A DNA stretch of 64,000 nt. Source: an uncultured Pirellula sp. (GTDB lineage Bacteria > Planctomycetota > Planctomycetia > Pirellulales > Pirellulaceae). The DNA lies in contig CAYMXM010000001.1 of the NCBI GenBank assembly GCA_964394065.1, forward strand, positions 46 through 64,045, written 5' to 3'. Of this stretch, positions 14,170 to 61,417 are shown piece after piece. Made by a program: the position numbers and the translations under genes. The notes beneath the pieces were generated by a model that saw only the letters and a program-made list of their open reading frames with translations, was not told the DNA's origin and made no database searches. The number at the start of each line of letters is the position of its first letter. Within the stretch, counting starts at the first letter, position 1.

Positions 14170-14206
14170 GGGTCCTAAGTTGAGTTTAAAAGTGAATCGT
14201 GGAGAA

Positions 14207-14668: not shown

Positions 14669-14674
14669 AGGTAG

Positions 14675-16001: not shown

Positions 16002-16243
16002 TCGTAGGCTTCCCTATACAGCCAAAGTTGGCGAAACAAACGTTTCGACTCCGAGTTGAACCGCACCCAGCGTCTAGATGCGATCGCAAGCAGTGGATCG
16101 TCGCATTCCAACTGCATGACACTCGCCCGAGGTTTGACTCGAGCGATCGGGGATCGCAAGAGTTCGACGACGAAGTCGCGGCGGAAACGCCGCGACAGAT
16201 CGAACCAGCTAAGATAGATTTCGCCGAACGACTCTATCTCCAC
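15866..16243 (-). CDS. Hypothetical protein (overlaps the connector 5' end)
   Basis: GGAGG RBS before a GTG at 16243; fills an otherwise empty gap, but has a 136-nt overlap. Confidence 0.35.
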   Translation of the reverse strand: MEIESFGEIYLSWFDLSRRFRRDFVVELLRSPIARVKPRASVMQLECDDPLLAIASRRWVRFNSESKRLFRQLWLYREAYECDARESRKTRFGWSLPNALDAIREYPILPTTTGSRKPSRRPTIT

Positions 16244-16266
16244 GTCCTCCGGATCCAGCAGGCAGA

Positions 16267-16647
16267 CTAGCCTTTGCGAGTCCGACGATTCGGTGGTGGT
16301 GATTGTGGGGAATCCTTATTAGGGAGAGCATCATTCGACGCATTCGGATCGGAAGCACTTTCGTTGCCCTCGGAGTCATCACCGTCGTTGTCGGAACTAT
16401 CGCTGTTCCCTTCGGGTAAATCCTCTTCTGGTTTGACGGCTACCGGTTCTGGTTCGATGGCTACCGGAATTGGAAACCGGTATAGCGTTTCCAGTTGCAG
16501 CTCGGTGGGTTCCGACGTCAATAGTCGACGAGCTTGTCCGGATCTAATGAGGTTTTCGGCCTCGGCTTCGGAAATCTCGACCAGTTGGTCGGGAACGAGC
16601 GCGAAGTCGTTCCCGGCGAGGGAAGCCAACAGAATTACTTGTGTCAT
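16267..16647 (-). CDS. Small post-capsid protein with an acidic low-complexity tail
   Basis: MTQVILLASLAG...EISEAEAENLIRSGQA; typical of the gene after the major capsid gene. Confidence 0.7.
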   Translation of the reverse strand: MTQVILLASLAGNDFALVPDQLVEISEAEAENLIRSGQARRLLTSEPTELQLETLYRFPIPVAIEPEPVAVKPEEDLPEGNSDSSDNDGDDSEGNESASDPNASNDALPNKDSPQSPPPNRRTRKG

Positions 16648-16723
16648 TGGGGGGGAATCCTGCTCGACCGGCCATCCCCGGTCGAGCACGTTAGGAGAAA
16701 AAGAAACGTTCAGTTGAACCGGC

Positions 16724-18199
16724 TTACGCCTGGGTCAGCTTCTTGACTGGGCAAGGTGCATTATTGGTCCAACGTTGGAGGCGACCGTCGAACCCTTGGT
16801 AGCCCAAGAATCCAGTATGCAACGTCTCAGCGAAACGTTCGGTGAGTTTTTGCACCAAAACATTTCCCACCTCACGCGCCTTGTAGTACCCGTAGTCACC
16901 GTAGAGCATGGTGATATTGGTGGTCGCGATCACGTTTTGCATGTACTGGTTGTAGATGATTCCCTGACCGTTCAACGTGTCGGGAATTCCATCTTTCAAG
17001 CCAGACGCCCAGAGGAAGCGTCCGGTGGTATCCTTGAGCAATCGAATCGATTTGATGACTGCGTCGTGAGCCATGTACATCCCGTTCGCTCGATAATGCG
17101 GATCCACCGAATGCTGTAGGTTGATCGTATCGTCCGCACTGATGGCTGCAGCGACCGCAGAGGTCACCCCCGCCGCCGCTTGAACAACGATGCCACCAGG
17201 TTGCGTTGTGCCGTTTCCGAGTGTCGCTCGTTTGAGTTTGATTCTCGCCAGACGTTGTCCGAGCATCTCCGCGACAAGCAAGTCAACGTTCGGTAACGAG
17301 TCACGAGTGAGCTGTAGGGATACCTTGATAAACCCCGATGTGAAGTCGTAAGCTCCCAGCGTCAACTGCTCCAGGGCAGCGTCGGGTTGTGCCAGCGCAT
17401 TGATATCAGCTCCTTCACCGATCTGCTGGCCTTCATTAGCGGTGTCATCACCAACCGGCCATTTCATTTGCTCGCCGGTTTCGGTGCGGATCGTATCAAC
17501 GAACGCAAAGAAGGGGCTCGTAGCGAGCATCGCCATCTCGATGGTATTGATGAAGGTGATCGGAACCAATTCAGCACCGGTTCCCGCACCACCTTTTGAC
17601 ATGCTTCGTTGTTGCTCACCGAGCTTTTCTTCAAGGATCGCGTGGTTATAGACGCGTGCCGCTCGCTGAAAACGTTTGTAGTCTTCGGTTGGTAGGAGCT
17701 TGGCACGAACCACCGAATCACGAGGGTCAGCGTGGAGACGCTGGCACGCGTCCCGCATGCGAGAGTCCAGCAGCCCCGGATTGATGTGAGCAACAATGAA
17801 CGCTCGCATGAACTGTCGGCCGTCGGCTTGCCGCTGTGCAAAGCTACGTGCTTCATCGAGGTCTTCGAAATCCTCCCCGTAAGCCTGTCCGCTTGCTGGG
17901 TTGATGTCATCGAGGCCGGGTTTCTGGCGACCGTGGTGGGTCGATCGACCTTCCCAATCGTTGACCTCAGTGATTCGCGAGTTGATCGATTCGTCATCCT
18001 CGATCGACTTGATCTCGTTCCGCAGAGTGTCGTACTCAGAGTTTACCTTCTCCCACGCGGTTCGCGTCTCATCGGGCCAAAGGGCAATAGCGGGATCTTT
18101 TTCCGCGGCCTTCTTCCGTTCGTTGTAGGCAGTTCCTTGCTTCTTGATTTCAGTAGCAAGCTCCCCTGCCTTCTTTCGTTTCTCCGCTAACACGCTCAT
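16724..18199 (-). CDS. Major capsid protein, HK97 fold with N-terminal coiled-coil scaffold
   Basis: GAELVPITF, VSLQLTRDS, DTTGRFLW, LNGQGI and YGDYGYY motifs. Confidence 0.95.
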   Translation of the reverse strand: MSVLAEKRKKAGELATEIKKQGTAYNERKKAAEKDPAIALWPDETRTAWEKVNSEYDTLRNEIKSIEDDESINSRITEVNDWEGRSTHHGRQKPGLDDINPASGQAYGEDFEDLDEARSFAQRQADGRQFMRAFIVAHINPGLLDSRMRDACQRLHADPRDSVVRAKLLPTEDYKRFQRAARVYNHAILEEKLGEQQRSMSKGGAGTGAELVPITFINTIEMAMLATSPFFAFVDTIRTETGEQMKWPVGDDTANEGQQIGEGADINALAQPDAALEQLTLGAYDFTSGFIKVSLQLTRDSLPNVDLLVAEMLGQRLARIKLKRATLGNGTTQPGGIVVQAAAGVTSAVAAAISADDTINLQHSVDPHYRANGMYMAHDAVIKSIRLLKDTTGRFLWASGLKDGIPDTLNGQGIIYNQYMQNVIATTNITMLYGDYGYYKAREVGNVLVQKLTERFAETLHTGFLGYQGFDGRLQRWTNNAPCPVKKLTQA

Positions 18200-18383
18200 T
18201 TGAACCTATTCCTCGAATGTCGGACCCACTATGAATTGACGGTACATGCCCACCGTCGCGTATGAACGCTGGCAAAAGTGAGAAAGTCCAACGTGCCAGC
18301 GTATAGACGTCTGGCCCGTGAGAATCACTGGGCAATCGGAAGCGGGGAGTATAGCGGGGGCTCTTAACGAGGTTTCAATGTAC

Positions 18384-18959
18384 CTAGACAGGTGCCGTGG
18401 CCGCGTAGGTGAAGAGAATGGTTCCGCTGTCCAAGTCAGTGTTGGAGGAGTTCCGTTCCCGCAGGGCAAAGAAGATCGATCGTTCGACCTTGGTGTAGAT
18501 CCGTGGAATCACGACGGAATAGGACGAACCAGTAATGACGGGTGAAAGCGTAGCAATATGCTTTTGATTCTTGTCGCACAGAACGAAGTCGCAAACGGGG
18601 AGCGTTATCGGATTCAAAGCCCCGTCGAGAACCGTTCGCGTGATTGGAACATCAGCATCGATCGTCACCGTGATCGTGGCAGCCGAGTAGTTTCGATCGT
18701 TCTCACCTTGGCTTGGGAGAACCGCCACTGTCTGAATGTGAAAGACTTGAAGCCAATCGTCCCAGCTCTCGGGCTCTGTGGCTCCCCGAAACAACCGCCA
18801 AACCGTAGCGATCGCAGGGTCGACCTCCACCGCGTAAGATCCCGTTGCCACCTCGATCGGGACACGTTTCGTTTCCTCCCAGTCAGCCAATGAAGAGCCC
18901 TCGGAAAGGACGTAGAAATCCGTGACTCCTGAATCTGCGGTGAAGGTTAGGGTTTCCAT
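18384..18959 (-). CDS. Hypothetical beta-rich virion-associated protein
   Basis: 191-aa ORF in the insert between the prohead protease and capsid genes. Confidence 0.65.
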   Translation of the reverse strand: METLTFTADSGVTDFYVLSEGSSLADWEETKRVPIEVATGSYAVEVDPAIATVWRLFRGATEPESWDDWLQVFHIQTVAVLPSQGENDRNYSAATITVTIDADVPITRTVLDGALNPITLPVCDFVLCDKNQKHIATLSPVITGSSYSVVIPRIYTKVERSIFFALRERNSSNTDLDSGTILFTYAATAPV

Positions 18960-18971
18960 GGTACGTCACGT

Positions 18972-19109
18972 CTATTGGGAACTGGAGAAACTTGAAAGAT
19001 CTACCTCGGTGAGTTAGTATCCCCCACCAAGCGTTGTAACTGTTACGTTGATCTCGCTGATGTAGTCACTCAGCAAGGAGAAACCGGTCGCTCCCCAGTG
19101 CGTACCGAG
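18972..19109 (-). pseudogene. Diverged relic of the 3' end of the Ig-protease gene
   Basis: 46 codons align without gaps to 19153-19290 (27/45 aa identical), with one internal stop. Confidence 0.85.
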
Positions 19110-19152
19110 GCTTCTCCGGTTTGATGCCGATGACCCAGCCGCTACAGAGCGG

Positions 19153-20298
19153 CTATGGGAAACTCGGGTAGCTCGACAGATCGACCTCGGTGAGCTGGTA
19201 TCCTCCGCCGAGCGTGCTCATTGCCGCGTCGATCTCGCTGATCAAGTCAGCAATCATTGCAAAGCTTGTTGCTCCTGCATGTACTCCGAGTAGGAGCAAC
19301 TCACTTCCAAGCACACACCAAATCGGCGATCCCGAATCGCCCCCAACGATCGGCTCAGCGTAAGGGGCAAGCTCCGCACGCGTTGACGCTGTGTGAATTA
19401 TTGTTACGTGGGGCGCGGCCGACAGAACGGTATGCGCCAGAACTTGAGCATCCTGGTCGCCGCAGATAATCTCCAGGCCAGCGAAAGAAATATATTCTCG
19501 CCAGTTTTCAGGAAGCACCTTGCACGGAGATATGCTTGCGGGTAAATCGCTATCAAGCAAAGCAATTCGAAGATCGCCAATGCCGATGAACTGTGATGCA
19601 ATAATTGTACGTTCAACCACTTGATTATTTAATGCGACAAACAGCACGACTGACCCGATTGATGGATAAGCATGATTGGCAACTACTAGATGCCTTTTCG
19701 AAACAGCGCATCCATTGAATCGCTGGCCTGTCGTGCTGTTTCGGATAGGCCATGCTGTCAGATCGCGAGATACCCAACAGTTTGCGTTACGCGAGTAGAT
19801 TGCAAGATCGTGAGAGATCGTGCTGTACACAGATTTCGATTTTCCTGGCGCCGCCATCGAAATTGTTGTGTCGTTGATTTCCTTGCCGAGCGTCCCATCT
19901 ATATAGCGTGAAAAAGTATCGACGGTTTCCCCTCCGGTGATCGAACCGTTGTGCACTGTAGTCCTCTTGGCCGGTAGAATGCCTACGACGATGATTACGC
20001 CCCCACTTGCGTGCGTTGTTATTCGTCCAGTCGCATCAACGCTTGCTACCACGGGGTTCGTCGACGAGTAGTATTCGACGAAATTTTCGGCGTTACCCTC
20101 TAGCGTAATTTGCCCATGCACTGTTTTGATTGCAGTTACGACTCTCGTGTAAACCGAGTCTCGCACAGTAATCTCAACAGGAGATGTTCCACCTTCCTCT
20201 ACCACGATCGGGGTATAGTTGATGATGAAATCGGTCGTGGATGGCGAAATCTGTAATGCTCCGGGGGTAATCTGGATCATATTTTCGTCGCCCACCAA
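19153..20298 (-). CDS. Ig-like (Big_2) domain plus trypsin-like serine protease
   Basis: YYSSTNPVVASVDATGRIT (Big_2); triad motifs VVANHAY, GDLRIALL and GGDSGSPI. Confidence 0.85.
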   Translation of the reverse strand: MVGDENMIQITPGALQISPSTTDFIINYTPIVVEEGGTSPVEITVRDSVYTRVVTAIKTVHGQITLEGNAENFVEYYSSTNPVVASVDATGRITTHASGGVIIVVGILPAKRTTVHNGSITGGETVDTFSRYIDGTLGKEINDTTISMAAPGKSKSVYSTISHDLAIYSRNANCWVSRDLTAWPIRNSTTGQRFNGCAVSKRHLVVANHAYPSIGSVVLFVALNNQVVERTIIASQFIGIGDLRIALLDSDLPASISPCKVLPENWREYISFAGLEIICGDQDAQVLAHTVLSAAPHVTIIHTASTRAELAPYAEPIVGGDSGSPIWCVLGSELLLLGVHAGATSFAMIADLISEIDAAMSTLGGGYQLTEVDLSSYPSFP

Positions 20299-21194
20299 CC
20301 AGTAGTACCTTTGAAGATCTGAGCTTTTTCATCCATAGCTAGAACAATATCGGATCCAGTGGTCGTGTAGAGACGATTAGCTGCGTCACTTGAAACGGAA
20401 TTATTCGTGAGTGTGAGCGAGACAGACATGCCATTGTGGACAATGAACGATCTGGGAAAAGCGCCTGCCTCCATTTCTGTTGCAGAAAATCCAGTGATTG
20501 TTCGAGGTGTAGCTCCTCCGGTAACGCGATAGAGGCTTCCACTCGCAGGCCAAATCAAATTGTCCCAGCTTGGGATCGCACCTGACGGGATACTTCTAGG
20601 GCTGAACCACTTGGCAGACAGAGAGACACCTCCAGAAGTCACTCCATTTCCAACGCGAATATCAGATACGCCCTGCGTGCTGTATGTCACGATAGCGATC
20701 TCGCCAAGATTAAGAACGATGGCATCAATCGTAGCCTTGTCTCCGATTCTCACCGATACAATTGCGTTCAGTACTCCACTTGCGTCAAGTGCCGGTGGAT
20801 TGAGTGGTGTATCGAGCTGAGCCTTGAGCACTGCATCAATCGCATCAACCTTCATCGCGAGCGCGGATACCATAGCCTCTAGATCGGCTTTGCTTGCAAG
20901 TGCTATCGATGTTGCATCGCTGATCGGTTTGTTGGCGTCGGATGTGTTGTCGACTGCACCGAGCCCTACGTCGGATTTGGAAAGACTGCTTATCGCATTG
21001 CTAACCTCTCCCGAAGCAACCTCGCCTGCTATTTCCGCAACTCTTTCCTCGTCGGTGCCCCCGATCATCGCCACATTGCCATTTTCGTCCACCGTTACGA
21101 ATCCAGCCTCAGTGGCAGCAAAGCGAATATGATCCTTCTTCGCTGCGTCGATTGCTCCATTCTCAATCTCGATCTGAATTCCTGCTTTTACCAT
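20277..21194 (-). CDS. Fibre/decoration-like protein
   Basis: DVGLGAVDNTSDANKPIS motif, common in phage fibre proteins, followed by a coiled coil and a beta-rich C-terminus. Confidence 0.65.
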   Translation of the reverse strand: MVKAGIQIEIENGAIDAAKKDHIRFAATEAGFVTVDENGNVAMIGGTDEERVAEIAGEVASGEVSNAISSLSKSDVGLGAVDNTSDANKPISDATSIALASKADLEAMVSALAMKVDAIDAVLKAQLDTPLNPPALDASGVLNAIVSVRIGDKATIDAIVLNLGEIAIVTYSTQGVSDIRVGNGVTSGGVSLSAKWFSPRSIPSGAIPSWDNLIWPASGSLYRVTGGATPRTITGFSATEMEAGAFPRSFIVHNGMSVSLTLTNNSVSSDAANRLYTTTGSDIVLAMDEKAQIFKGTTGWWATKI

Positions 21195-28568: not shown

Positions 28569-30290
28569 ATGGACAGAGTAACAACCAATCTATTGCAAGA
28601 GTTCGTAAGGGAAAACCAACATGAGTCCTTGCAAGTATCTGAGCAGTTTGAACACTTTGTTAATTTTGCGACGGTGTCCCGCGAGTACGCAGATACCTTT
28701 GACCACACCTCCGTCCATGTGGGAAAAGACGGAAACCCAGGAATCGACGGGGTTGGAATCATCGTAAACGGAGCGATCGTTGACGATGCCGAGGAGATTG
28801 ACGATCTATTGGAAAAAAACAAGTACCTCGAAGTTACGTACGTTTTCGTGCAAGCAAAAACGAGCAGTTCGTTCTCAAGTGGCGATATCAGCACGTTCAT
28901 TGAGTCTGTTCGGGATTTTTTCCGTGAGGTTCCCGGACAGGTACAAAGCGAGGACCTCAAGAGAAAGTTTGACCTTCAATCTAAAATCCTCAGTCATTCG
29001 GGGAAGATGCGAGCTAATCCAAAGTGCAGCTTGTACTACGTCACGACTGGCACATGGGTCGGTGATCAGAATTTAGTTTCCCGAATAGAGTCGGGTAAAA
29101 AGGATCTTGAAGACACAGAGCTGTTTAGTACAGTTTCCGTGACTGCATGTGGAGCGAGGGAAATCCAACAGTACTATCGTCAAAGCAAGGAGACGCTCGA
29201 CGCAGAGTTTGATTTCACTAACAAAGTGACGCTCCCATCGATCCCCGGTATCAACGAGGCACATATAGGCATCCTCCCAATGGGAACGATTCTTCGCCTT
29301 ATTTCCGACAGTGTCGGAAACGTGAGAAAGGCCGTTTTTGAGGACAATATTCGAGACTTTCAAGGTAGCTCGGAGATTAACGAACGAATCCAAACAACAT
29401 TGAAGGATGACGAAGCGGCGCTGAGATTTGCCGTTTTGAACAACGGAATTACCATCGTCTGCAGGAACCTCAGGTTTACAGGAGCACGCTGCAAGATTGA
29501 TGGCTTTCAGGTTGTGAACGGTTGCCAAACCTGTCACGTCCTTTTCAATTGCTCCTCCGTTAATCACGCGGATAATGTTTTTGTTCCGGTTAAGCTAATT
29601 GCGACACAGGACGAAGACATTGTCAATTCGATCATTCGCTCAACCAATTCACAGAACGAGGTCAAGCCTGAGCAGCTAGAAGCGATGACGGAGTTCCAAA
29701 AAACATTGGAGACTTTCTATAAGACCTATAGGAAAACTCCGGGAGAGCTTTTTTATGAACGCCGATCAAAGCAATATGCTTCCGAACCTATAGAAAAAAC
29801 TCGAATTATCACGATTCCCACTCAGATCAAATCGTTTTCCGCGTTGTTTCTGGCGGTCCCCCATCGCGTCGCAGGCTACTACGGAACCATACGCGAAAGA
29901 ATGAACGATCAAATTTTCAAACCAGAACATAAACCTATCGCATACTACGCTTGCGGCTATGCGTGGTACAGGCTTGAGACACACTTCCGAGTGAAGGGAG
30001 TTGACTTTAACAAGTGGAGGTCGCTTAAGTGGTATATGCTGATGATTTTTGCGAGAATGGCAGCTGGTGCTCCCCCACAAGCAGCAACAAGGGAATGTGA
30101 GAGATATTGCGAAAAGCTCATAAAGAAGCTGGATGACACCCAAGAAGTTAAGCGATTGTTCGACTCAATTGCAACTCGGCTCTCAAAGATTAATCCAAAG
30201 ACGGATAAGGATTCGGTGAAGACTCTGAATTTCAGAGATTCTATTTTGGATGGTTTCAAAGACTTGCTTCTTCCAGAGAAAAATCGATAA
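28569..30290 (+). CDS. AIPR family protein (abortive infection phage resistance), moron
   Basis: FEDNIRDF, FAVLNNGITI, QVVNGCQT and STNSQN motifs; opposite strand; AT-richer than its neighbours. Confidence 0.88.
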   Translation: MDRVTTNLLQEFVRENQHESLQVSEQFEHFVNFATVSREYADTFDHTSVHVGKDGNPGIDGVGIIVNGAIVDDAEEIDDLLEKNKYLEVTYVFVQAKTSSSFSSGDISTFIESVRDFFREVPGQVQSEDLKRKFDLQSKILSHSGKMRANPKCSLYYVTTGTWVGDQNLVSRIESGKKDLEDTELFSTVSVTACGAREIQQYYRQSKETLDAEFDFTNKVTLPSIPGINEAHIGILPMGTILRLISDSVGNVRKAVFEDNIRDFQGSSEINERIQTTLKDDEAALRFAVLNNGITIVCRNLRFTGARCKIDGFQVVNGCQTCHVLFNCSSVNHADNVFVPVKLIATQDEDIVNSIIRSTNSQNEVKPEQLEAMTEFQKTLETFYKTYRKTPGELFYERRSKQYASEPIEKTRIITIPTQIKSFSALFLAVPHRVAGYYGTIRERMNDQIFKPEHKPIAYYACGYAWYRLETHFRVKGVDFNKWRSLKWYMLMIFARMAAGAPPQAATRECERYCEKLIKKLDDTQEVKRLFDSIATRLSKINPKTDKDSVKTLNFRDSILDGFKDLLLPEKNR

Positions 30291-38128: not shown

Positions 38129-38361
38129 GATTTCACCTCGCATGGCCTCAGATCGTCGAGGCTCCACAGATCCGTCCGTTTTCGCCAGCCGGAACGGACG
38201 ACCACCTCAAAGAATCCCTTGAACAGTCCTTGCTGCAACACCTCGCCACGTCCGCATACGCGCGATAGGTGGTGTTCACGCGATCGCACGAACACGCGAT
38301 CCCCGGGGCGCGGGCTCCAGCCATCGACTGGCTTCGCGAAAGCTCGTTGTCTCGGTGTCAT
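38125..38361 (-). CDS. Small SH3/KOW-like hypothetical protein
   Basis: PGDRVFV...GEVL...EVVV...LDDLRP; overlaps both neighbours. Confidence 0.6.
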   Translation of the reverse strand: MTPRQRAFAKPVDGWSPRPGDRVFVRSREHHLSRVCGRGEVLQQGLFKGFFEVVVRSGWRKRTDLWSLDDLRPCEVKS

Positions 38362-39452
38362 GACGCGAGCCTCTCAAGCAGGGATTCTTCCACCTTGAGA
38401 TAGTTGTTCCTCGCAACCATCGGGGAATGCCCAAGAAGCATTCCGGCCTGCTGAGGTGTGATTGTCGGATCCGACGCCAAATGATTCGCACGCGTTGCTC
38501 GTAAGGCGTTGTATGGGGGCGCCCAACGTGGGACGCCGGCGCGGGTCTGCAAACCGTAGAGCCATTCGTAGCAGTTGTTCTCCGTGATCCTCGATAAGAT
38601 GCGTTCCTCCGGATCTCGGCCGCTGAGCAGCTCGGGGAGATGCTCGCGAATGGCCGGGTAGACCGGATTGACCCGGACGCGTTGATTCTTCGTCTCTTGA
38701 ATGTAGATACGGTTGCGATCAAGCTCGATATCGCAAGCGCGCAGGGCGAGCCCTTCCCGAAGGCGACAACCGGTCCATTGGCAAAGCCGCAACCAATAAC
38801 GTTCTTCTGTGTCGGTGCAAAGCTCGACCAGGTAGTCGATCCATTCCCAATGCACCGTGTCTTTGGAGCGTGGGGCAATGGTGCGGTTCAAAGCATCGCA
38901 CGGGTTAGTCTTGATCGCTCCTTTACTTCGGAGCCACTCAAAGAACAACCGCCAGTTCTTCGCGATGCGAGCCAGTGTATTCTCAGCGTATGCGTAGGAC
39001 TCCTCGAGGTCGGCTAGCAGGTCCGTGAGGCACCCCTCATCGATGCGAGGTACGTCGATCGATAGACGCTGCAGCTTGCGAACGTCGCGTAGAACTGCCT
39101 CGTCAGTTGCGACGTCAGTCGATTGTTCTTGGCGAAATACCTCGAACTCATCGATCCAATCCTCCCACGATCGCCGCTCCGGATCGATTGCGTGCGAGTC
39201 CTCGAGGTGCAACCGCTCCTGCAGGTACGCGAACTGTTTCCGCGGAATCGCTTTGAGCCAATCGGTCGTCGCTTGGGCGATCGGCAGCTCCAACTGCTGC
39301 GCCTCGAGCAATCGTCCGACGTGCCGCTTTAGTGTCGACCACTCACGTTCCCCAAGCTTGAACCGCTTGAAGCAAAGCGTGTCCTGTCGGCCAACGCGGG
39401 GCCCAGCCTGATGCCGGAAGATGAGTTGTCGATCGACGTCTCGGCTAAACAT
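38358..39452 (-). CDS. Tyrosine recombinase 2 (in the early operon)
   Basis: WTGCRLRE, NALRATR and LLGHS...NNY motifs, plus a core-binding domain. Confidence 0.88.
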   Translation of the reverse strand: MFSRDVDRQLIFRHQAGPRVGRQDTLCFKRFKLGEREWSTLKRHVGRLLEAQQLELPIAQATTDWLKAIPRKQFAYLQERLHLEDSHAIDPERRSWEDWIDEFEVFRQEQSTDVATDEAVLRDVRKLQRLSIDVPRIDEGCLTDLLADLEESYAYAENTLARIAKNWRLFFEWLRSKGAIKTNPCDALNRTIAPRSKDTVHWEWIDYLVELCTDTEERYWLRLCQWTGCRLREGLALRACDIELDRNRIYIQETKNQRVRVNPVYPAIREHLPELLSGRDPEERILSRITENNCYEWLYGLQTRAGVPRWAPPYNALRATRANHLASDPTITPQQAGMLLGHSPMVARNNYLKVEESLLERLAS

Positions 39453-39825
39453 TGCTGGCCTCCGGTTGCTTGGGAAGTCGATATTCCGCTCCGAGCCCCT
39501 TTAACACTTCGATAACATCTCCACGCGTGGCATAACGCTTGCCGGCGAGGACCAACCCCTCCCCCGATGCCATACGTCCAAACGCTTCTTTGATCCCGGC
39601 CATCAACTGCAGCTCAAGGAGACGATTGGCGAATATGCAACGGATCCACAGAACGCTGGTGTACGATTCGTGAATGGTGAAGTCAGCGTATTGATACTCG
39701 GCGGCCTGGCTCACATCCCCGCCGATTGAATGAAGCCAAGCCATCGTTACCGGCTCTCTTGCCTCGCTGATGCCTAGCGGTTGCTCGATCGTGATTAGTA
39801 TGTCCTGCTCAGGTTGCCGCGACAT
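39445..39825 (-). CDS. Hypothetical phage protein
   Basis: AAGGAGG RBS before the ATG at 39825. Confidence 0.7.
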   Translation of the reverse strand: MSRQPEQDILITIEQPLGISEAREPVTMAWLHSIGGDVSQAAEYQYADFTIHESYTSVLWIRCIFANRLLELQLMAGIKEAFGRMASGEGLVLAGKRYATRGDVIEVLKGLGAEYRLPKQPEASNV

Positions 39826-40156
39826 GACGGTCCTCCTTGCGAGACGATTGCATCGTGATTTCGTGGCGTGCAATGTTCACGCAACGGGGAGCTTCGATCG
39901 CGAGCTTCAAGTCGTCCGAAGTAAACTCCGACACTGTGATCGTGACCTCGATGTCGTCGACGGTCACTACGATTGATTCGCCTGAGTGGCGTCGGATGAT
40001 TGCGCCAACATCGCTTGTGACGGGGGAGGAGCTGTCAGTCGCGACCAGCGACATAACAGCTTCGAGACGATCGCGGCTCAATAGCGTGAGCATGATGCGG
40101 ACGTCGAGCACCTCCATGATGATCGATCGACCAATCTTTCGTCGTAAGCAGAGCAT
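39809..40156 (-). CDS. csrA: Tandem-domain CsrA/RsmA-like RNA-binding protein
   Basis: Unit 1 MLCLRRKIGRSIIMEVLDVRIMLTLLS; unit 2 IRRHSGESIV...IEVTITV...LKLAIEAPRCVNIARHEI. Confidence 0.75.
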   Translation of the reverse strand: MLCLRRKIGRSIIMEVLDVRIMLTLLSRDRLEAVMSLVATDSSSPVTSDVGAIIRRHSGESIVVTVDDIEVTITVSEFTSDDLKLAIEAPRCVNIARHEITMQSSRKEDRHVAAT

Positions 40157-40160
40157 AGGT

Positions 40161-40201
40161 TCATCCCTGTATGGCAGCCGTTAAATGGAGCCCTCATCCT
40201 G
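40161..40201 (-). promoter_or_regulatory. Two CsrA-type binding sites in the csrA-like leader
   Basis: AUACAGGGAUGA over the RBS (40172-40161) matches RUACARGGAUGU at 11/12; CAGGAUG at 40201-40195. Confidence 0.6.
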
Positions 40202-40258
40202 CCTCGCGTAGTACTACGAAACAGAATGAGGGAAATGGCCGCCGGCGCTCTTGATGAG

Positions 40259-40495
40259 CTACGGCAGCGACACCTCGATCCGCCTCTCGACGGACGAGGA
40301 GGTTCGAACCAACGAACTGAATCGGATGTTGTCAAATCGCCACGCGCTCCGAGAACGATCCACCGCGATGCGAATCGAACGAGGCAACGCTTTACCGTTG
40401 TGGATGCGTCGCATCGCTTGTTGTTCTTCGCGCATGCGTTGAGCAGCCGCGAAACCGCGTAATGCCGGTGTTCTGTTATTGCTGCTTGTTGACAT
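40259..40495 (-). CDS. Small basic hypothetical protein
   Basis: 78-aa ORF just after the 40520 terminator; weak RBS. Confidence 0.45.
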   Translation of the reverse strand: MSTSSNNRTPALRGFAAAQRMREEQQAMRRIHNGKALPRSIRIAVDRSRSAWRFDNIRFSSLVRTSSSVERRIEVSLP

Positions 40496-40519
40496 GATCG
40501 ATTTTGTTTTACTGGTTCG

Positions 40520-40563
40520 AAAAAGCCCGCCACCCCGGATTGATGATGCGTCGGGGTGGCGGG
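40520..40563 (-). terminator. Intrinsic terminator in the early leader
   Basis: Perfect 12-bp stem CCCGCCACCCCG/CGGGGTGGCGGG followed by CTTTTT. Confidence 0.85.
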
Positions 40564-40628
40564 AACACGAAAGGGGGCTTTGGTCCCTCCGCGTCCCCCT
40601 CGCAATCGCCTGACAGCGTGCGAGGGGA

Positions 40629-40751
40629 AACCGCCTGCAGGATTCGAACCTGCGACCTACTCGGTAGTGCAACAGCGCAGAGGTTCGACAGTCGGAGAAG
40701 TCCTCAAGCTATTGCGATACCGAGTCGCTCTACCAACTGAGCTACGACGGT
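40629..40751 (-). ncRNA. tRNA-like RNA with the anticodon loop replaced by a 57-nt hairpin
   Basis: Acceptor ACCGTCG/AGGCGGT, D arm GCTC-AGTTGGTA-GAGC, anticodon stem ACTCG/CGAGT, variable loop AGGTC and T arm GCAGG-TTCGAAT-CCTGC; the insert self-pairs. Confidence 0.85.
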
Positions 40752-40855
40752 ACGGCTCGATGCAAGAGCACCGAGCATGAGCCCGAGACAGGCAGCGTTT
40801 GAGACCACTCGAAACAAACGCCGCAAGGGCTTGAAGAACGCGAGCCACGCGGCCC

Positions 40856-40893
40856 AAAAACGAACAAAGCCCACTGAATCAGGTCCAGTGGGC
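40856..40893 (-). terminator. Terminator-like hairpin downstream of the XRE gene
   Basis: GCCCACTG/CAGTGGGC stem followed by TTTGTTCGTTTTT. Confidence 0.65.
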
Positions 40894-40901
40894 CACAGTG
40901 T

Positions 40902-40950
40902 CGGCAGAATTCTGCCGGCGTGCAATAGGGATTCGGCAGAATTCTGCCGA
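40902..40950. promoter_or_regulatory. Two identical perfect operator palindromes overlapping a putative early promoter
   Basis: CGGCAGAATTCTGCCG at 40902-40917 and 40934-40949; minus-strand TTGCAC-N17-GACACT at 40925-40897. Confidence 0.75.
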
Positions 40951-41202
40951 TTATTTTCGAAATTCGTCCATACTTATCTCGAAGAAATCGGCAATTGCAG
41001 CCGCGGTATCGCCACTAATTGAATACGGATACGTGCCGTTATACAGAGCTTGGGTCGAGCGTTCCGCTATGCCAAGTGCTTTCGCAACGTCTTGGTGGCG
41101 GATACCGGACTCATCCACAAGTTCCCGAAAACGCTTGCTCACACCTTTAGTAAACTCAAGGTTCGCGATTGTTGCCGCTTTAGCTGTTGCCATTTCAATC
41201 AT
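40951..41202 (-). CDS. XRE-family HTH regulator (repressor/Cro-like)
   Basis: RFRELVDESGIRHQDVAKALGIAERST...IADFFEISMDE. Confidence 0.9.
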   Translation of the reverse strand: MIEMATAKAATIANLEFTKGVSKRFRELVDESGIRHQDVAKALGIAERSTQALYNGTYPYSISGDTAAAIADFFEISMDEFRK

Positions 41203-42043: not shown

Positions 42044-42095
42044 AAGTGGTCAGGGCCGGGATCGAACCGGCGACACATGGATTTTCAGTCCATTG
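42044..42095. repeat. Prophage att direct repeat, right copy (within the intact tRNA)
   Basis: Identical 52 bp to 5825-5876. Confidence 0.97.
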
Positions 42096-42119
42096 CTCTA
42101 CCTACTGAGCTACCTGACC
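42047..42119 (-). tRNA. tRNA-Phe(GAA)
   Basis: GGTCAGGTAGCTCAGTAGGTAGAGCAATGGACTGAAAATCCATGTGTCGCCGGTTCGATCCCGGCCCTGACCA; full cloverleaf; CCA not encoded. Confidence 0.97.
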
Positions 42120-46621: not shown

Positions 46622-46681
46622 TCTGTCCTCTCCTGAAAAGTCCATTCGGTCTAGAATTCAGTATACTAAAAACAGAGGCGC

Positions 46682-46843
46682 ATCCCAACCCGTGGCGTAA
46701 GCGAGGGACAGCGTCGCGAGTGCACGTAGCCCTTGTCGGGAATATCTCAGGCGTCGGGTGGCACGTCCCTGAGGCACGAAGGGCGTGCTGGGAGGGATGG
46801 CTGGTTGCCAGCGCTGTCCCTCGCTTACGCCACGGGTTGTGAT
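46682..46843. repeat. MITE/REP-like element family B
   Basis: Terminal inverted repeats of consensus ATCACAACCCGTGGCGTAAGCGAGGGA. Confidence 0.85.
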
Positions 46844-47132
46844 GGGGGGACGCTTCGCGTCCACCCCCTTACCTCCGATGCTTCAGGCCTGGCTGGGGGT
46901 GAGGGGTAGAATCGCTAGAAATAATAGCCGAGTTTAAGCTGCCAACTACACTTCTGGTGTGTTCCGTGGCCGCTTGGCGTGCGAAGGTGATTGCAATGGA
47001 AACGAAGATTGACTTGCGATCTCAATCTGATATGGAGGCAGCGGCCACTTCACACACCCTACGACTACGAACCCATTCGAAACAGCGAAGGTATTTCGGA
47101 ACAGTTCCTTAATTACTTATCACCAATCCAGC

Positions 47133-48761: not shown

Positions 48762-48863
48762 AAACTGCGGAAGGTGAGGTTTAAGGAATAAGGCTTAAGA
48801 CTTAAGGAAGAAGAGGGGGAGCAAGCCCATCAGCGGTAAGGGGTAGACGCGAAGCGTCCCCCC

Positions 48864-49034
48864 ATCACAACCCGTGGCGTAAGCGAGGGACAGCGTCGCG
48901 AGTGCAAGTAGACCTTGTCGAAAATATCTCAGGCGTTGGGTGGCACGTCCCTGAGGCACGAAGAGCGTGCTGTGAGACCTTGGATGGATGCTTGGTTGCC
49001 AGCGCTATCCCTCGCTTACGCCACGGGTTGTGAT
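48864..49034. repeat. MITE/REP-like element family B
   Basis: Same terminal inverted repeats and internal block as the other family B copies. Confidence 0.85.
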
Positions 49035-49038
49035 TGGA

Positions 49039-50889: not shown

Positions 50890-51202
50890 TTGTGCGTCCT
50901 ATTCTCGACCAATAAACCAACGACGCCGATGCGAACAAGGGTCCGAATCGGCGACGGGTTCTTTCGGTTGTGTCTGTATTAGTAGGTGCTTGCTGGGGCC
51001 TTGAGCCCGAGAGTCTTGGAACAAGGGTGGAAAACCCAACATTTTAGGCAGCCAGGCCGCGCATTGTCAATCATAGCCAAGGGTAAGGGGAGATAAGGGA
51101 AAAACATTTGGAGATTTTGGTACGGAATGAAGGAGATGATGGCACTAATAGGGGAGGCTTGGCGAATCGGCGGTAAGGGGGCGGACGCGAAGCGTCCCCC
51201 CA

Positions 51203-51371
51203 ATCACAACCCGTGGCGTTAGCGAGGGATCGCGTCACGAGTGAACGTTGCCCTCGTCGGTAACACTCAGGCGCCGTGTGGCAGTCCCTGAGGCACGAAG
51301 GGCGTGCTGTGAGACCTGGGATGGATGTCAGGTTGTCAGCGCTGTCCCTCGCTTACGCCACGGGTTGTGAT
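51203..51371. repeat. MITE/REP-like element family B
   Basis: Same terminal inverted repeats and internal block as the other family B copies. Confidence 0.85.
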
Positions 51372-51492
51372 TCGGGCCTCGCTTACGCGTCGGCCAAGAG
51401 AGAGCCTCAAAACAACCTATGAACCCGACGTAAACATGGGCGAGACGCCGGGGCCACGTCATGAGATTGAGTCATAAAAGAAAAACAAAACT

Positions 51493-57794: not shown

Positions 57795-57876
57795 AGAGTC
57801 TGTTCGTAACCACGGATAACACCGATAGCACGGATTTTTGATATCGGTGCTAAGGGGGGGAAGCGAAGACCCCCCC

Positions 57877-58048
57877 ATCACAACCCGACGCGTTAGCGAG
57901 GGATAGCGTTGCGAGTGAGCGTGGCCCTTGTCGCGAATATTTCGAGCGTCGGGTGGCACGTCCCTGAGGCACGAAGGGCGTGCTGTTGTGCCTTATATTG
58001 GATGCCTAGTTGCCAGCGCTGTCCCTCGCTTACGCCACGGGTTGTGAT
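57877..58048. repeat. MITE/REP-like element family B
   Basis: Same terminal inverted repeats and internal block as the other family B copies. Confidence 0.85.
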
Positions 58049-58175
58049 TTTGTGGCCCGGGCCACGATGAAGACTTTTCGCGATTGCAAAATTTTCACAC
58101 ACCAACCGCGTAACGGCAATCATTTCGCTCTACAATCTACTCCGAGCCCCTTTCAACTTCTCCATTGGACCGAAC

Positions 58176-60993: not shown

Positions 60994-61146
60994 TTGAAGT
61001 GCTAGGAACGTTGACCAAGTTGGCGGCTCTGACCCGCCGATTCGTACTCAGCGCAGCGGTACTCGGTGTCTGGTGGGGACAAGCCCCATCCAGACGAGAG
61101 ACACTTTCCCAAAGAAAAATGCTTCACAGCGTTCCTGACAAGGTCT

Positions 61147-61192
61147 ACGTGCACTCGCGACGCCGTCCCTCGCTTACGCCACGGGTTGTGAT
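61147..61192. repeat. Half copy of the family B element
   Basis: ...CCCTCGCTTACGCCACGGGTTGTGAT, right terminal repeat only. Confidence 0.7.
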
Positions 61193-61417
61193 GGGGGGGA
61201 CCATTTTTCTCTGAAACGGACTCATTTGCAATTAAAATGCAAAAGCATCCTGTTGCGATTAGAGAGGGCGTTTGTTATTGTAGTGTTTTTGGTTGTTCGA
61301 TGCATATGCATTAGTGTTGCAAATTAGATTTCGATGTGTTTGCCAGAACGATCAGCCTACTATCATCCTCGCGGGAACGGTTGAGATTCCGTAGTCCCTA
61401 ACTGAGCTGAGCCCCTC

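What the first reader, a model, noticed from the sequence alone, without database searches (positions are those of the whole stretch)
40629..40751. tRNA-shaped RNA with the anticodon loop replaced by a long hairpin
Seen (minus strand, 123 nt): standard acceptor stem (6 of 7 pairs, U discriminator, no CCA), D arm, 5-nt variable loop and T arm. The 7-nt anticodon loop is replaced by 57 nt that fold as an extended arm: ACUCGGUA/UACCGAGU, then GCAAUAGC/GCUGUUGC including a G-U pair, then GAGG/CCUC and an apical loop. The extensive pairing suggests a maintained structure rather than random decay. The insert is too short for a group I intron, shows no clear bulge-helix-bulge, and removing it at usual intron positions leaves a non-canonical G32 loop. 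From memory, the D and T arms match E. coli tRNA-Lys, though these arms are shared by many tRNAs. Hypotheses: (a) an RNase P-processed immunity or attenuator RNA analogous to P4 CI or P1 C4; (b) a decoy for anticodon nucleases such as PrrC or PARIS AriB; (c) a tRNA-mimic scaffold like tmRNA or Y RNA domains.
Basis: partly seen in the sequence, partly recalled or inferred. Interest (0 to 1): 0.85.

Follow-up and report, generated by a model that had tools for sequence, protein, structure and literature searches.

The report
Prophage tRNA-shaped RNA with display arm
A Pirellula prophage carries a gene folded like a complete tRNA whose anticodon loop is replaced by a long hairpin; it belongs to a small, apparently undescribed family of non-decoding tRNA-like RNAs in the early control region of related prophages, and is probably a regulatory RNA.

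Summary
Window 40629-40751 (minus strand) scores 45.6 bits on Rfam tRNA (cut-off 29), with 57 nt in place of the 7-nt anticodon loop. The arm folds as described (z = -5.4).

**Context.** It lies 1.3 kb inside a 36-kb prophage integrated at tRNA-Phe. The order is Xre repressor gene, promoter with operator repeats, hairpin plus U-run, leader, tRNA-like RNA, two hairpins, terminator, CsrA-like gene, integrase.

**Family.**
- Related Pirellula prophages (integrase 45-69% identical) carry tRNA-like genes at the same locus.
- In the 14 aligned members, 12-57 nt replace the anticodon loop. The inserts differ in sequence, and most fold into hairpins.
- Across those 14 members the cloverleaf is 99% paired, and 14 of 21 pairs show compensatory changes.

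**What it is not.**
- An intron: no group I core or bulge-helix-bulge, and no junction gives a U33/R37 loop here or in homologs.
- A repeat element: the insert is single-copy.

**Best reading (about 40%).** A tRNA-derived, non-decoding RNA, matured by tRNA-processing enzymes, that displays a C/U-rich apical loop for pairing. This resembles phage P1 C4 and P4 CI immunity RNAs.

**Limits.** No target was identified.

The parts
40629..40751 (-). tRNA-shaped RNA gene (123 nt): full cloverleaf, U73, no encoded CCA, anticodon loop replaced by 57 nt
   Evidence: Rfam RF00005 45.6 bits; MFE cloverleaf; homologs and covariation
40659..40725 (-). Extended 'anticodon' arm (RNA positions 27-93): 8 bp + 8 bp + 4 bp helices separated by small internal loops
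   Evidence: Fold of arm alone -27.9 kcal/mol, z -5.4, 0/200 shuffles. The 57-nt insert within it (40664-40720) is single copy in the genome
40684..40701 (-). Apical region ACUUCUCCGACUGUCGAA with the pyrimidine-rich motif CUUCUCC, similar to loops of relatives (UUUCCUCCUAC, ACUUCCCCGUC, GACUUCCAG)
   Evidence: Inserts listed; folds; SD-pairing test (family p 3e-4, this loop alone p 0.29)
40897..40925 (-). Sigma-70-like promoter candidate: -35 TTGCAC (40925-40920), 17-nt spacer, -10 GACACT (40902-40897). The spacer is filled by the second operator palindrome
   Evidence: Read from the sequence. The same -35/17 nt/-10 layout sits just upstream of the conserved hairpin in L258, L264, L270 and L249 (G009b); L271 has a -35 and 17-nt spacer but only a doubtful -10. 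The tool's consensus scan did not call it
40933..40950 (.). Operator-like palindrome TCGGCAGAATTCTGCCGA (copy 1). Copy 2, cCGGCAGAATTCTGCCGa, is at 40901-40918
   Evidence: Related prophages have their own pair of repeats at the same place
40858..40894 (-). Conserved hairpin plus U-run (CCCACUGGACCUGAUUCAGUGGG-CUUUGUUCGUUUUU): either the first structure of the leader transcript or the terminator of the HTH gene
   Evidence: Terminator-like call. Conserved with compensatory changes in relatives. Pattern present in 4 of 67 genomes of the genus
40752..40857 (-). Structured leader between the 5' hairpin and the tRNA-like RNA
   Evidence: Fold of 40515-40900: -184.5 kcal/mol, z -6.6
40520..40627 (-). 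Two hairpins (first: 40596-40627) and an intrinsic terminator (stem 40526-40563, U-run 40520-40524) directly after the tRNA-like RNA
   Evidence: Sequence; fold; the same hairpin(s)-plus-terminator layout follows the homologs
40259..40495 (-). Small ORF (78 aa from the ATG). Its stop codon lies in the UAG of a decayed second tRNA-like element, and it has a positional counterpart in Pirellula sp. SH-Sr6A
   Evidence: Coding status not established
40168..40264 (-). Remnant of a second ('type 2') tRNA-like element: GCUGCCGUAGCUCA... matches the 5' end of the relatives' 92-94-nt element. The T arm is lost and a 17-bp hairpin is kept
   Evidence: Comparison and 36/41; fold z -5.9
39809..40156 (-). 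CsrA-like gene (N-terminus MLCLRRKIGRSII). AUACAGGGAUGA at its ribosome-binding site matches 11 of 12 positions of the CsrA SELEX consensus RUACARGGAUGU (consensus from memory)
   Evidence: Pfam PF02599 3.7e-11. A CsrA-like gene follows the RNA locus in every related prophage with the region sequenced
40951..41202 (-). Xre-type helix-turn-helix gene (83 aa) directly upstream of the operator/promoter region
   Evidence: Precomputed PF13443; HTH_3/HTH_26/HTH_31 hits in the relatives' counterparts
38358..39452 (-). Tyrosine integrase of the prophage
   Evidence: PF00589; homologs used to find the family
42044..42119 (-). tRNA-Phe(GAA) (42047-42119) with attL (42044-42098). The matching attR copy is at 5825-5879, so the prophage spans about 5825-42098
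   Evidence: ARAGORN/Rfam; 55-nt direct repeat, 98% identical (family D10)

Best explanation
**What it is.** The element is a functional, non-decoding RNA derived from a tRNA. It is one member of a family of 'tRNA-scaffold' RNAs encoded in the early leader of a group of Pirellula temperate phages.

**Proposed steps (all inferred).**
- It is transcribed from the operator-controlled promoter next to the Xre repressor gene.
- The intact acceptor, D and T elements let the host's tRNA machinery mature it: RNase P at the 5' end, RNase Z or exonucleases plus the CCA-adding enzyme at the 3' end. This would release a stable L-shaped RNA of about 123 nt.
- The anticodon end has been rebuilt into a rigid stalk of about 20 bp, far too long for the ribosomal decoding site. 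The stalk presents an exposed pyrimidine-rich loop (ACUUCUCCGAC...).
- That loop is the working part. Most likely it base-pairs with purine-rich sites such as ribosome-binding sites in the phage early operon (csrA-like gene, genes before int) or in host mRNAs. The RNA would then act as a trans- or cis-acting regulator of the lysogeny/early programme, in the manner of the RNase P-processed immunity RNAs C4 (P1/P7) and CI (P4).

**Shown.** The structure, its conservation by compensatory change, its non-tRNA anticodon region, and its conserved genomic position.

**Inferred.** Transcription, processing, pairing and the regulatory outcome.
For: **Structure**
- It has a full tRNA core with the tertiary-interaction nucleotides U8, A14, G18G19, G26/A44, G15-C48 and the UUCGAAU T loop.
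- The arm is far more stable than chance: z -5.4.

**Family**
- tRNA-like genes with an abnormal anticodon region occur at the same locus in prophages with 45-69% identical integrases. These include Pirellula sp. SH-Sr6A and metagenomic contigs.
- Across 14 distinct members 99% of stem cells pair and 14 of 21 pairs change on both sides. There are 65 compensatory cells against 18.5 in shuffles (0 of 500), and slid controls pair only 38-47%.
- Inserts of 12-57 nt differ in sequence, and most extend the anticodon stem into a hairpin; the exceptions are the 12-nt open loop of type 1 and the barely structured L271_b.
- L264 and L270_b share the stem but carry different loops, as expected of a specificity determinant.

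**Loop motif**
- The apical motif recurs: ours ACUUCUCCGAC, type 1 UUUCCUCCUAC, L257 ACUUCCCCGUC, L273_b GACUUCCAG.
- Over 12 loops the pairing potential to a Shine-Dalgarno sequence exceeds that of random genome segments (Fisher p 3e-4).

**Context**
- The layout, repressor gene, operator-flanked promoter, multiple terminators, then the csrA-int operon, resembles an immunity or early-leader region.
Against: - Transcription, RNA ends, CCA addition and stability are all unknown.
- No target was found. The best complementarities in the prophage are at chance level.
- Cognate loop/csrA-RBS and loop/locus duplexes are no better than non-cognate ones.
- For this element alone the anti-SD signal is not significant (p 0.29). 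The family test was devised after seeing the loops, and the members are related.
- The covariation could partly be inherited from different ancestral tRNAs rather than selected after the inserts arose.
- Some related prophages (L260, L261, L266, G443) have no recognisable tRNA-like gene in the leader, so the module is dispensable for the phage family.
- The acceptor stem has a G7.A66 mismatch.
Confidence: 0.4

Rival explanations
1. Cis-acting processing or insulation module ('tRNA punctuation'). The cloverleaf serves only as an RNase P/RNase Z cleavage site in the early leader. Cleavage would separate or destabilise the downstream csrA-int mRNA, or define its 5' end. The released tRNA-like piece and its arm would have no function of their own.
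For: - The element lies inside a leader upstream of an operon, between terminator-like structures.
- Up to two tRNA-like units occur in series at the locus.
- Some relatives lack the module altogether.
- tRNA-like processing signals in mRNAs are established for plant mitochondrial t-elements and MALAT1 (review PMC4919922).
Against: - A mere cleavage signal does not need an anticodon arm, yet most members keep a paired extension and a recurring C/U-rich apical motif.
- A strong terminator follows the element before csrA. Much transcription would therefore end there, leaving nothing to be processed away from.
Confidence: 0.2
2. Decoy or sponge for a tRNA-binding protein. The L-shaped body, without a cleavable or readable anticodon loop, would titrate one of these:
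- a host defence tRNase or tRNA-modifying toxin;
- a tRNA-processing or tRNA-modification enzyme;
- the host Ro/Rsr-Y RNA machinery.
For: - The tRNA elbow and acceptor are intact, while the part attacked by anticodon nucleases is replaced.
- The prophage carries an abortive-infection gene (AIPR), and some relatives carry GNAT acetyltransferases near the RNA.
- The host encodes TROVE/Ro proteins with a YrlA-like RNA (54 bits) and tRNA-like genes next to one of them.
- Phage tRNAs are known to counter tRNA-targeting defences (PMC12409363, abstract).
Against: - Decoys for anticodon nucleases should mimic the target loop, and none of the family loops resembles an anticodon loop.
- Acceptor stems and discriminators vary (U, A, G), so there is no common identity for an acceptor-end enzyme.
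- The YrlA model does not match the element.
- The location in a repressor-controlled early leader fits regulation better than constitutive defence.
Confidence: 0.15
3. Partner RNA of the phage CsrA-like protein. The RNA locus and the csrA-like gene would form a pair, with the RNA acting as antagonist or sponge, as cofactor, or as part of the csrA leader that the protein autoregulates.
For: - A CsrA-like gene follows the RNA locus in every related prophage examined.
- The gene in this window has a near-consensus CsrA site at its own ribosome-binding site (consensus from memory).
- Single GGA motifs sit in or near loops of several members: D loop AGAAGGAA, apex UUGGAUC, and GAGGAC here.
Against: - Known CsrA sponges carry many GGA loops, whereas this RNA has one GGA at a stem-loop boundary.
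- The recurring loop motif is UCC-rich, the complement of a CsrA site rather than a site.
- Relatives without a tRNA-like module still have csrA.
Confidence: 0.1
4. Decaying captured tRNA. A tRNA gene picked up by the phage, or a former attachment-site tRNA, has lost its anticodon loop to a junk insertion and is on its way out.
For: - The G7.A66 mismatch.
- A clearly decayed second tRNA-like copy lies 370 nt downstream.
- The module is absent from some relatives.
- These phages integrate into tRNA genes.
Against: - 99% pairing with many compensatory changes across 14 members.
- Most inserts are paired, and this one is extremely stable.
- The core tertiary nucleotides are intact.
- The decayed copy shows what real decay looks like here: loss of the T arm.
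Confidence: 0.06
5. Intron-containing tRNA. The insert would be removed by self-splicing, a splicing endonuclease, or RNase P/Z plus a ligase, giving an ordinary decoding tRNA.
For: - ARAGORN with introns allowed reports tRNA-Asp(AUC) with a 50-nt intron.
- Short, unexplained inserts in phage tRNA genes are real: Lak megaphages (PMC6784885), earlier notes of this scan, and many insert-bearing tRNA genes.
Against: - At 57 nt it is far below group I size, and there is no intron hit in Rfam.
- There is no bulge-helix-bulge: the internal loops are 2x2.
- Every possible junction leaves G32 and A34.
- Treating the 8-bp inner helix as a mini acceptor stem for RNase P/Z gives a 9-nt loop, GUAUCCUAC (inference from the sequence).
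- Homologous elements have 12-50-nt inserts with no shared U33/R37 register or anticodon.
- No ligase or endonuclease gene was found among the prophage proteins scanned.
Confidence: 0.04

Closest known systems
C4 antisense RNA of phages P1/P7 and CI RNA of P4 (RNase P-processed immunity RNAs)
   Same: - Small structured RNAs encoded in the promoter-proximal leader of a temperate phage's early or immunity operon, upstream of the genes they control.
- Matured by the host tRNA enzyme RNase P (Hartmann et al. 1995, listed as ref. 206 in PMC4919922).
- Exposed loops carry the immunity specificity (my own knowledge).
   Different: - C4 and CI only imitate the acceptor/T-stem part recognised by RNase P, whereas this RNA is a complete cloverleaf with D and T arms.
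- No Rfam family other than tRNA, so not C4 either, matched the element.
- No complementary target sites were found in the leader or operon.
- Processing is untested.
Bacterial Y RNAs of the YrlA type (Rfam RF02553)
   Same: - A non-decoding tRNA mimic in which the position of the anticodon arm is occupied by a long helix.
- The host of this prophage has rsr plus a YrlA-like RNA.
   Different: - The topology is permuted. In YrlA the long helix carries the RNA's 5' and 3' ends and the acceptor stem is closed. Here the acceptor end is open and the long helix is closed by a loop.
- The YrlA model does not hit the element.
- The element is not next to an rsr gene.
Viral and cellular tRNA-like processing modules: MHV68 TMERs (vtRNA plus pre-miRNA hairpins) and mascRNA from MALAT1
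   Same: - A tRNA-shaped, non-aminoacylated module recognised by RNase P/RNase Z and linked to further hairpins. It is used by a virus or a long RNA to generate small RNAs (mascRNA: PMC4919922; TMERs: my own knowledge).
- Here too the cloverleaf is followed by two hairpins.
   Different: - Those are eukaryotic systems, with a Pol III promoter inside the tRNA in the TMER case.
- In those cases the functional hairpins lie outside the cloverleaf, not in place of the anticodon loop.
Engineered 'tRNA scaffold' for recombinant RNA (Ponchon and Dardel 2007; my own knowledge)
   Same: The architecture is the same: an RNA of interest is inserted in place of the anticodon loop of a tRNA, so that the cell processes and stabilises the chimera.
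   Different: That is a laboratory design. This would be a natural counterpart, and whether stabilisation is the selected benefit is unknown.
Insert-bearing phage tRNA genes
   Same: A short insert, of neither group I nor bulge-helix-bulge type, in the anticodon loop of a phage-encoded tRNA-shaped gene.
   Different: - Those inserts interrupt recognisable anticodon loops with an assignable anticodon, and some are themselves tRNA-shaped.
- Here no anticodon can be assigned in any family member, and the insert is a plain hairpin.
tRNA-Other of Bacillus cereus (tRNA-like regulator; my own knowledge)
   Same: A tRNA-derived RNA that works outside translation as a regulator.
   Different: It keeps a normal 7-nt anticodon loop and normal size, and it is chromosomal rather than prophage-borne.

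Membership tests
Decoding tRNA (Rfam RF00005) | Cloverleaf with conserved core nucleotides (U8, A14, G18G19, T-loop UUCRANY) | tested here: met
   45.6 bits, model positions 1-71 all aligned; MFE cloverleaf
Decoding tRNA (Rfam RF00005) | 5-bp anticodon stem closed by a 7-nt loop with U33, an anticodon and a purine at 37 | tested here: not met
   57 nt replace the loop. Homologs carry 12-50 nt with no common U33/R37 register
Decoding tRNA (Rfam RF00005) | Aminoacylation and use on the ribosome | not testable with these tools
   Acceptor stems and discriminators vary across the family (U, A, G), so no identity set can be assigned
Group I intron in a tRNA anticodon loop | Catalytic core (P3-P9), usually over 200 nt | tested here: not met
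   The insert is 57 nt. No intron family was hit at gathering or at E <= 5
Archaeal/eukaryal-type tRNA intron | Bulge-helix-bulge at the exon-intron junctions, with a canonical loop after removal | tested here: not met
   The internal loops are symmetric 2x2. All junction choices leave G32/A34 (and direct reading)
tRNA-shaped phage tRNA introns (earlier notes of this scan; Lak phages) | The insert itself folds as a mini-tRNA, and its boundaries fit RNase P/Z cuts that restore a 7-nt loop | tested here: not met
   The insert is a single hairpin without a T arm. Cuts at the inner helix would leave a 9-nt loop, GUAUCCUAC (inference)
P1 C4 / P4 CI immunity RNAs | Encoded in the leader of the early or immunity operon of a temperate phage | tested here: met
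   The order is Xre gene, operators/promoter, leader with the RNA, terminator, csrA...int. It is conserved in relatives
P1 C4 / P4 CI immunity RNAs | Loops complementary to target sites in the same transcript | tested here: inconclusive
   No complementarity above chance was found. Loops are SD-complementary as a family but not specifically
P1 C4 / P4 CI immunity RNAs | 5' end made by RNase P | not testable with these tools
   It needs in vitro cleavage or 5'-end mapping.
P1 C4 / P4 CI immunity RNAs | Sequence/structure match to the Rfam C4 family (RF01695, accession from memory) | tested here: not met
   No family other than tRNA was reported at the element in the window scan or in the E <= 5 scan of L001
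YrlA / bacterial Y RNA (RF02553) | Match to the family model; Ro-binding helix formed by the RNA termini; gene next to rsr | tested here: not met
   In L001 YrlA scores only 19 bits, over the tRNA-Phe region and not the element. The arm is closed by a loop. The host's rsr/YrlA locus lies on another contig
tmRNA | tRNA-like domain plus tag reading frame | tested here: not met
   ARAGORN and Rfam report no tmRNA in the window
MITE/REP-type repeat inserted in a tRNA gene | Multiple copies of the insert in the genome | tested here: not met
   blastn-short of the 57 nt finds only itself; the next hit is 20 nt with E 0.05
CsrB/RsmZ-type CsrA sponge | Many GGA motifs in hairpin loops | tested here: not met
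   One GGA (GAGGAC) at a stem-loop boundary

The most novel reading that the evidence does not exclude
Temperate phages of Planctomycetes would use whole tRNA cloverleaves as a natural 'tRNA scaffold'.

- The scaffold is a chassis that the host's tRNA enzymes cut out and stabilise.
- Its anticodon position carries exchangeable display arms of 12-57 nt, whose C/U-rich loops act as phage-specific antisense or anti-Shine-Dalgarno effectors.
- Working with the adjacent phage CsrA-like protein, these modular RNAs would set immunity and the lysis-lysogeny decision.

This would be a new class of tRNA-embedded regulatory RNA, the natural counterpart of an engineering trick.
Probability: 0.2. Interest if true: 0.8.

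Novelty: new variant of a known kind. Interest (0 to 1): 0.62.

Why it matters
**If the reading is right.**
- tRNA genes would be shown to be repurposed in bacteria and phages as scaffolds for regulatory RNAs. That design is known from herpesvirus TMERs, mascRNA and laboratory 'tRNA scaffolds', but as far as I could find it has not been described for a full cloverleaf in a prophage control region.
- It would add an RNA layer, and a phage CsrA-like protein, to lysogeny control in Planctomycetes, a phylum whose phages are almost unstudied.

**For annotation.** It gives pipelines a concrete case: Rfam reports 'tRNA' hits of 85-125 nt that ARAGORN misses or calls intron-bearing, yet they are not decoding tRNAs.

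**Testability.** The family is small but structurally well supported. It is also experimentally accessible, because Pirellula sp. SH-Sr6A, a sequenced isolate (complete genome), carries two such prophages.

Tried and rejected
**Searches for homologs or extra copies**
- BLAST of the 123 nt against its own genome and 60 relatives gave only tRNA-arm fragments. Homologs appeared only through the integrase.
- The exact stem pattern GTAGAGCGACTCG-N50-70-CGAGTAGGTC gave nothing in viral contigs. The four metagenome hits were unrelated (two identical tRNA-Asn(GUU)-like genes with an insert after A37 as I read the loop, and two tRNA tandems).
- The apex pattern CTTGAGRACTTCYCCGNC gave 44 viral hits, none next to D- or T-arm motifs, so at chance level.
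- Cultured phage records: no match.
- Earlier notes of this scan: nothing on relatives.

**The broad tRNA-framework pattern.** GCTCAGTTGGTAGAGC-N60-90-GGTTCGAATCC found 91 viral and more than 120 genomic loci. These belong to other, unrelated families of insert-bearing tRNA genes. A few long-arm look-alikes (L049 group, L194, L218) have unrelated contexts.

**Target search**
- RNAduplex of the apex against the prophage gave chance-level results.
- Exact complement words gave one 10-mer inside a coding region.
- Arms against csrA start regions, and loops against whole loci, were no better for cognate than for non-cognate pairs.

**Other ideas rejected**
- CRISPR-repeat mimicry: the host has two arrays, and their repeats do not resemble the arm.
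- Intron models, MITE, tmRNA, YrlA and CsrA-sponge memberships were all tested and not met (see the membership table).

**Unavailable**
- Hartmann et al. 1995 (PMC41593) is not held in the library.
- One literature query failed on a term that was too short.
Full report
**1. The observation**

Rfam's tRNA model matches window 40629-40751 on the minus strand at 45.6 bits (gathering score 29). All 71 model positions are aligned, and 57 nt sit where the 7-nt anticodon loop belongs.

ARAGORN in default mode does not report it. With introns allowed it forces a 'tRNA-Asp(AUC) with 50-nt intron'.

- acceptor stem with 6 of 7 pairs (G7.A66 mismatch), discriminator U73;
- canonical D arm, G26, variable loop AGGUC and T arm;
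- helices of 8, 8 and 4 bp replacing the anticodon loop, topped by the 18-nt region ACUUCUCCGACUGUCGAA.

The arm alone folds at -27.9 kcal/mol against -14.8 +/- 2.4 for dinucleotide shuffles (z -5.4, 0 of 200). The cloverleaf persists when the whole 386-nt leader is folded (z -6.6).

The missing CCA says nothing, because the host's own 76 predicted tRNA genes also lack an encoded CCA. None of them is a close relative of the element.

**2. Where it sits**

A 55-nt direct repeat (42044-42098 and 5825-5879) is the 3' part of tRNA-Phe(GAA) at 42047-42119. It delimits a 36-kb prophage.

The prophage genes lie almost all on the minus strand:
- terminase, portal and capsid;
- a ParB-like protein;
- a tyrosine integrase (38358-39452);
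- a CsrA-like protein (39809-40156).

An AIPR abortive-infection gene lies on the plus strand.

Reading the minus strand from attL, the order is as follows:
- a 160-aa ORF;
- an 83-aa Xre-type HTH gene (40951-41202);
- two copies of the palindrome (T/C)CGGCAGAATTCTGCCGA, flanking and filling a sigma-70-like promoter candidate (TTGCAC, 17 nt, GACACT);
- a hairpin with a U-run (40858-40894);
- a structured leader;
- the tRNA-like RNA;
- two hairpins and an intrinsic terminator (40520-40627);
- a 78-aa ORF;
- a decayed second tRNA-like element (40168-40264);
- the csrA-like gene, a 142-aa ORF and the integrase.

**3. Homologs**

Direct nucleotide searches found nothing. The integrase did.
- Two IMG/VR prophages, which are the two prophages of Pirellula sp. 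SH-Sr6A (handle G009).
- Two prophages in a second genome of the genus (G011).
- Metagenomic contigs encoding integrases 45-69% identical.

All share the order HTH gene, RNA locus, CsrA-like gene, variable genes, integrase, ParB-like gene.

Rfam's tRNA model hits 77- to 116-nt 'tRNAs' in the HTH-csrA gap of most of them. Three more were found by eye: L258, L264 and L271_b.

In SH-Sr6A there are two per prophage:
- 'type 1', 77 nt, with a 12-nt loop UUUCCUCCUACU;
- 'type 2', 92-94 nt, with a 26-28-nt hairpin. A small ORF separates the two.

The element studied here occupies the type 1 position. It shares the type 1 3' acceptor strand (AGGYGGY-U), as does L273_a, which has a 50-nt insert.

The type 2 position in this window retains only a remnant that begins GCUGCCGUAGCUCA.

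A third type (L259_b, L269, L270_a, L271) instead carries a conserved arm of about 45 nt in the variable region.

Four related loci have no recognisable tRNA-like gene: L260, L261, L266 and G443. The conserved leader hairpin is present in 4 of 67 species genomes of the genus.

**4. Is the structure maintained?**

I aligned the cores of 14 distinct members. Each insert was replaced by an artificial UUCG linker so that the columns correspond. Results:
- 99% of the 294 stem cells form standard pairs.
- 14 of 21 pairs change on both sides.
- There are 65 compensatory cells against 18.5 +/- 3.7 in shuffles (0 of 500).
- Sliding the partners by 1-3 columns drops pairing to 38-47%.

Caveat: part of this covariation could be inherited if the members descend from different tRNAs. 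Close pairs nevertheless also show wobble-to-Watson-Crick changes (L264 versus L270_b in the T stem; G011b_2 versus L259_a in the acceptor stem).

The inserts (12, 19, 20, 23, 26, 28, 29, 34, 50 and 57 nt) are not alignable with each other. In most members they extend the anticodon stem into a hairpin; the exceptions are the 12-nt open loop of type 1 and the barely structured L271_b. This element's arm is the longest and most stable.

L264 and L270_b share the stem but carry different loops.

**5. What it is not**

*Not an intron.*
- At 57 nt it is too short for group I, and no intron family is hit.
- The internal loops are symmetric 2x2, not a bulge-helix-bulge.
- Every junction choice leaves G32 and A34.
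- Cutting at the inner helix, as RNase P/Z would cut a mini-tRNA, leaves a 9-nt loop.
- Across the family there is no common U33/R37 register or anticodon.

*Not a dispersed repeat.* The insert is single copy.

*Not plain decay.* See section 4, and compare the truly decayed copy downstream, which has lost its T arm.

*Not a member of other families.* It is not tmRNA, YrlA or a CRISPR-repeat mimic, and no Rfam family other than tRNA (so not C4) matched it.

**6. How it probably works**

*Shown:* a complete tRNA body, a rebuilt anticodon end that cannot decode, conservation by compensation, and a fixed position in a repressor-controlled, terminator-rich early leader.

*Inferred:*
- The tRNA body makes the transcript a substrate for RNase P, RNase Z and the CCA-adding enzyme. 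They would release a stable L-shaped RNA.
- The stalk displays the apical loop.

The apex carries a recurring pyrimidine-rich motif:

| Member | Apical motif |
|---|---|
| this element | ACUUCUCCGAC |
| type 1 | UUUCCUCCUAC |
| L257 | ACUUCCCCGUC |
| L273_b | GACUUCCAG |
| L258 | GCUCCUCCUUA |
| L264 | CACUCCCUC |

Over 12 loops, the pairing energy to a Shine-Dalgarno sequence is better than for random genome segments (Fisher p 3e-4). This loop alone is unremarkable (p 0.29), the test was post hoc, and the members are related.

Strong SD sequences do occur at the csrA-like gene and at the gene before int in these operons. In L257 and L258 the best in-locus partner of the loop is the ribosome-binding site of the gene preceding int. 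Cognate pairings are, however, no better than non-cognate ones.

I therefore commit to a 'tRNA-scaffolded regulatory RNA acting through its apical loop, in the manner of P1 C4 or P4 CI' at about 40%.

The rivals are:
- a pure processing or insulation signal (20%);
- a decoy for a tRNA-binding protein, including host Rsr (15%);
- a CsrA partner RNA (10%);
- decay (6%);
- an intron (4%).

**7. Comparison with known systems**
- It works most like C4/CI: a leader-encoded RNA matured by RNase P, with specificity in its loops. It fails or cannot be tested on their defining features other than location.
- Architecturally it is the natural counterpart of the engineered tRNA scaffold.
- It is a circular permutation of YrlA-type Y RNAs.
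- It is unlike the insert-bearing phage tRNAs reported for Lak megaphages and noted earlier in this scan, which keep an assignable anticodon.

Literature searches for tRNA-like RNAs with CsrA, prophages or expanded anticodon arms found no description.

**8. Limits**
- The family is known from about 20 loci in one genus and related metagenomes.
- The target or partner is unknown.

Noticed in passing
G000 contig C350 (locus L278:2650-3110, minus strand): The host has a Ro60/Rsr-like gene (TROVE, 545 aa). It is preceded by a YrlA-like Y RNA (54.4 bits, E 2.6e-10, below Rfam's cut-off of 69) and by two tRNA-like genes (45 and 28 bits). A second TROVE gene lies on C78. As far as I know, an rsr/Y-RNA module has not been described in Planctomycetes.
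   Followed up: partly
window 39809-40175 and relatives (L255, L257-L273): Every prophage of this family encodes a CsrA-like protein (N-terminus MLxLxRRxGxSI) just after the RNA locus, with a terminator immediately before its ribosome-binding site. In this window that site, AUACAGGGAUGA, matches 11 of 12 positions of the CsrA SELEX consensus (from memory), which suggests autoregulation.
   Followed up: partly
window 40168-40264 (-): A very stable 17-bp hairpin (z -5.9) is embedded in a decayed copy of the relatives' second tRNA-like gene. The stop codon of the 78-aa ORF falls in the UAG of that copy, as it does in Pirellula sp. SH-Sr6A.
   Followed up: partly
L259:8886-8997, L269:1876-1989, L270:4007-4121, L271:1399-1514: A third kind of tRNA-like gene (112-116 nt) occurs in the same prophage family. 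It has a non-canonical anticodon loop and a conserved arm of about 45 nt (GYGAGAGUAGGGG...CCUGAGGGUAGC) in the variable region. In L259 it lies elsewhere in the prophage.
   Followed up: partly
L261:3104-3600 and L266:4020-4600: Two related prophages without a tRNA-like gene share another motif in the same leader: CGTGACAGTACTG...GGAGAGAC. It may be a different structured RNA occupying the same slot.
   Followed up: no
Loci L033-L243 (viral and genome contigs): The pattern D-arm-N60-90-T-loop finds many tRNA-shaped genes with 40-70-nt inserts, falling into recurrent families:
- a hairpin followed by ACAGCAA (Lachnospiraceae and gut phages);
- GTTACTTC (Bacteroidota and jumbo phages);
- CCTTGTTGCC...GGCGAATGC...GGAACTACA (Rhodobacterales and Caulobacterales).

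In at least one ACAGCAA member (L140) the insert lies between the D arm and an intact anticodon arm.
   Followed up: partly
window 46675-46940, 48857-49036, 51178-51372, 57870-58050, 102-210, 61139-61194: A dispersed repeat of about 90-180 nt, with the core CCCTCGCTTACGCCACGGGTTGTGAT in both orientations, occurs five to six times outside the prophage. It looks REP- or MITE-like.
   Followed up: no
window 28569-30290 (+): An AIPR (abortive infection) gene lies on the opposite strand inside the prophage, in a low-GC stretch (48%). It is probably a defence moron.
   Followed up: no
G000 contigs C6 (about 3115-11084) and C10 (about 12536-20893): There are two CRISPR arrays with 37-nt and 33-nt repeats: CCCTTCAGCGCTTGAGAAAGCGCTGCCTCATTGAAGC and GATCGCCCGCCATGCGCGGGCGCGGATTGAAAC.
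   Followed up: no
L244/L246 (metagenome contigs Ga0315277_10087782, Ga0315275_10106151): By my reading of the loop (CUGUUA...), this is a tRNA-Asn(GUU)-like gene with a structured insert of about 46 nt after A37, in sediment metagenomes. It has the same anticodon stem sequence as the element but is otherwise unrelated.
   Followed up: no
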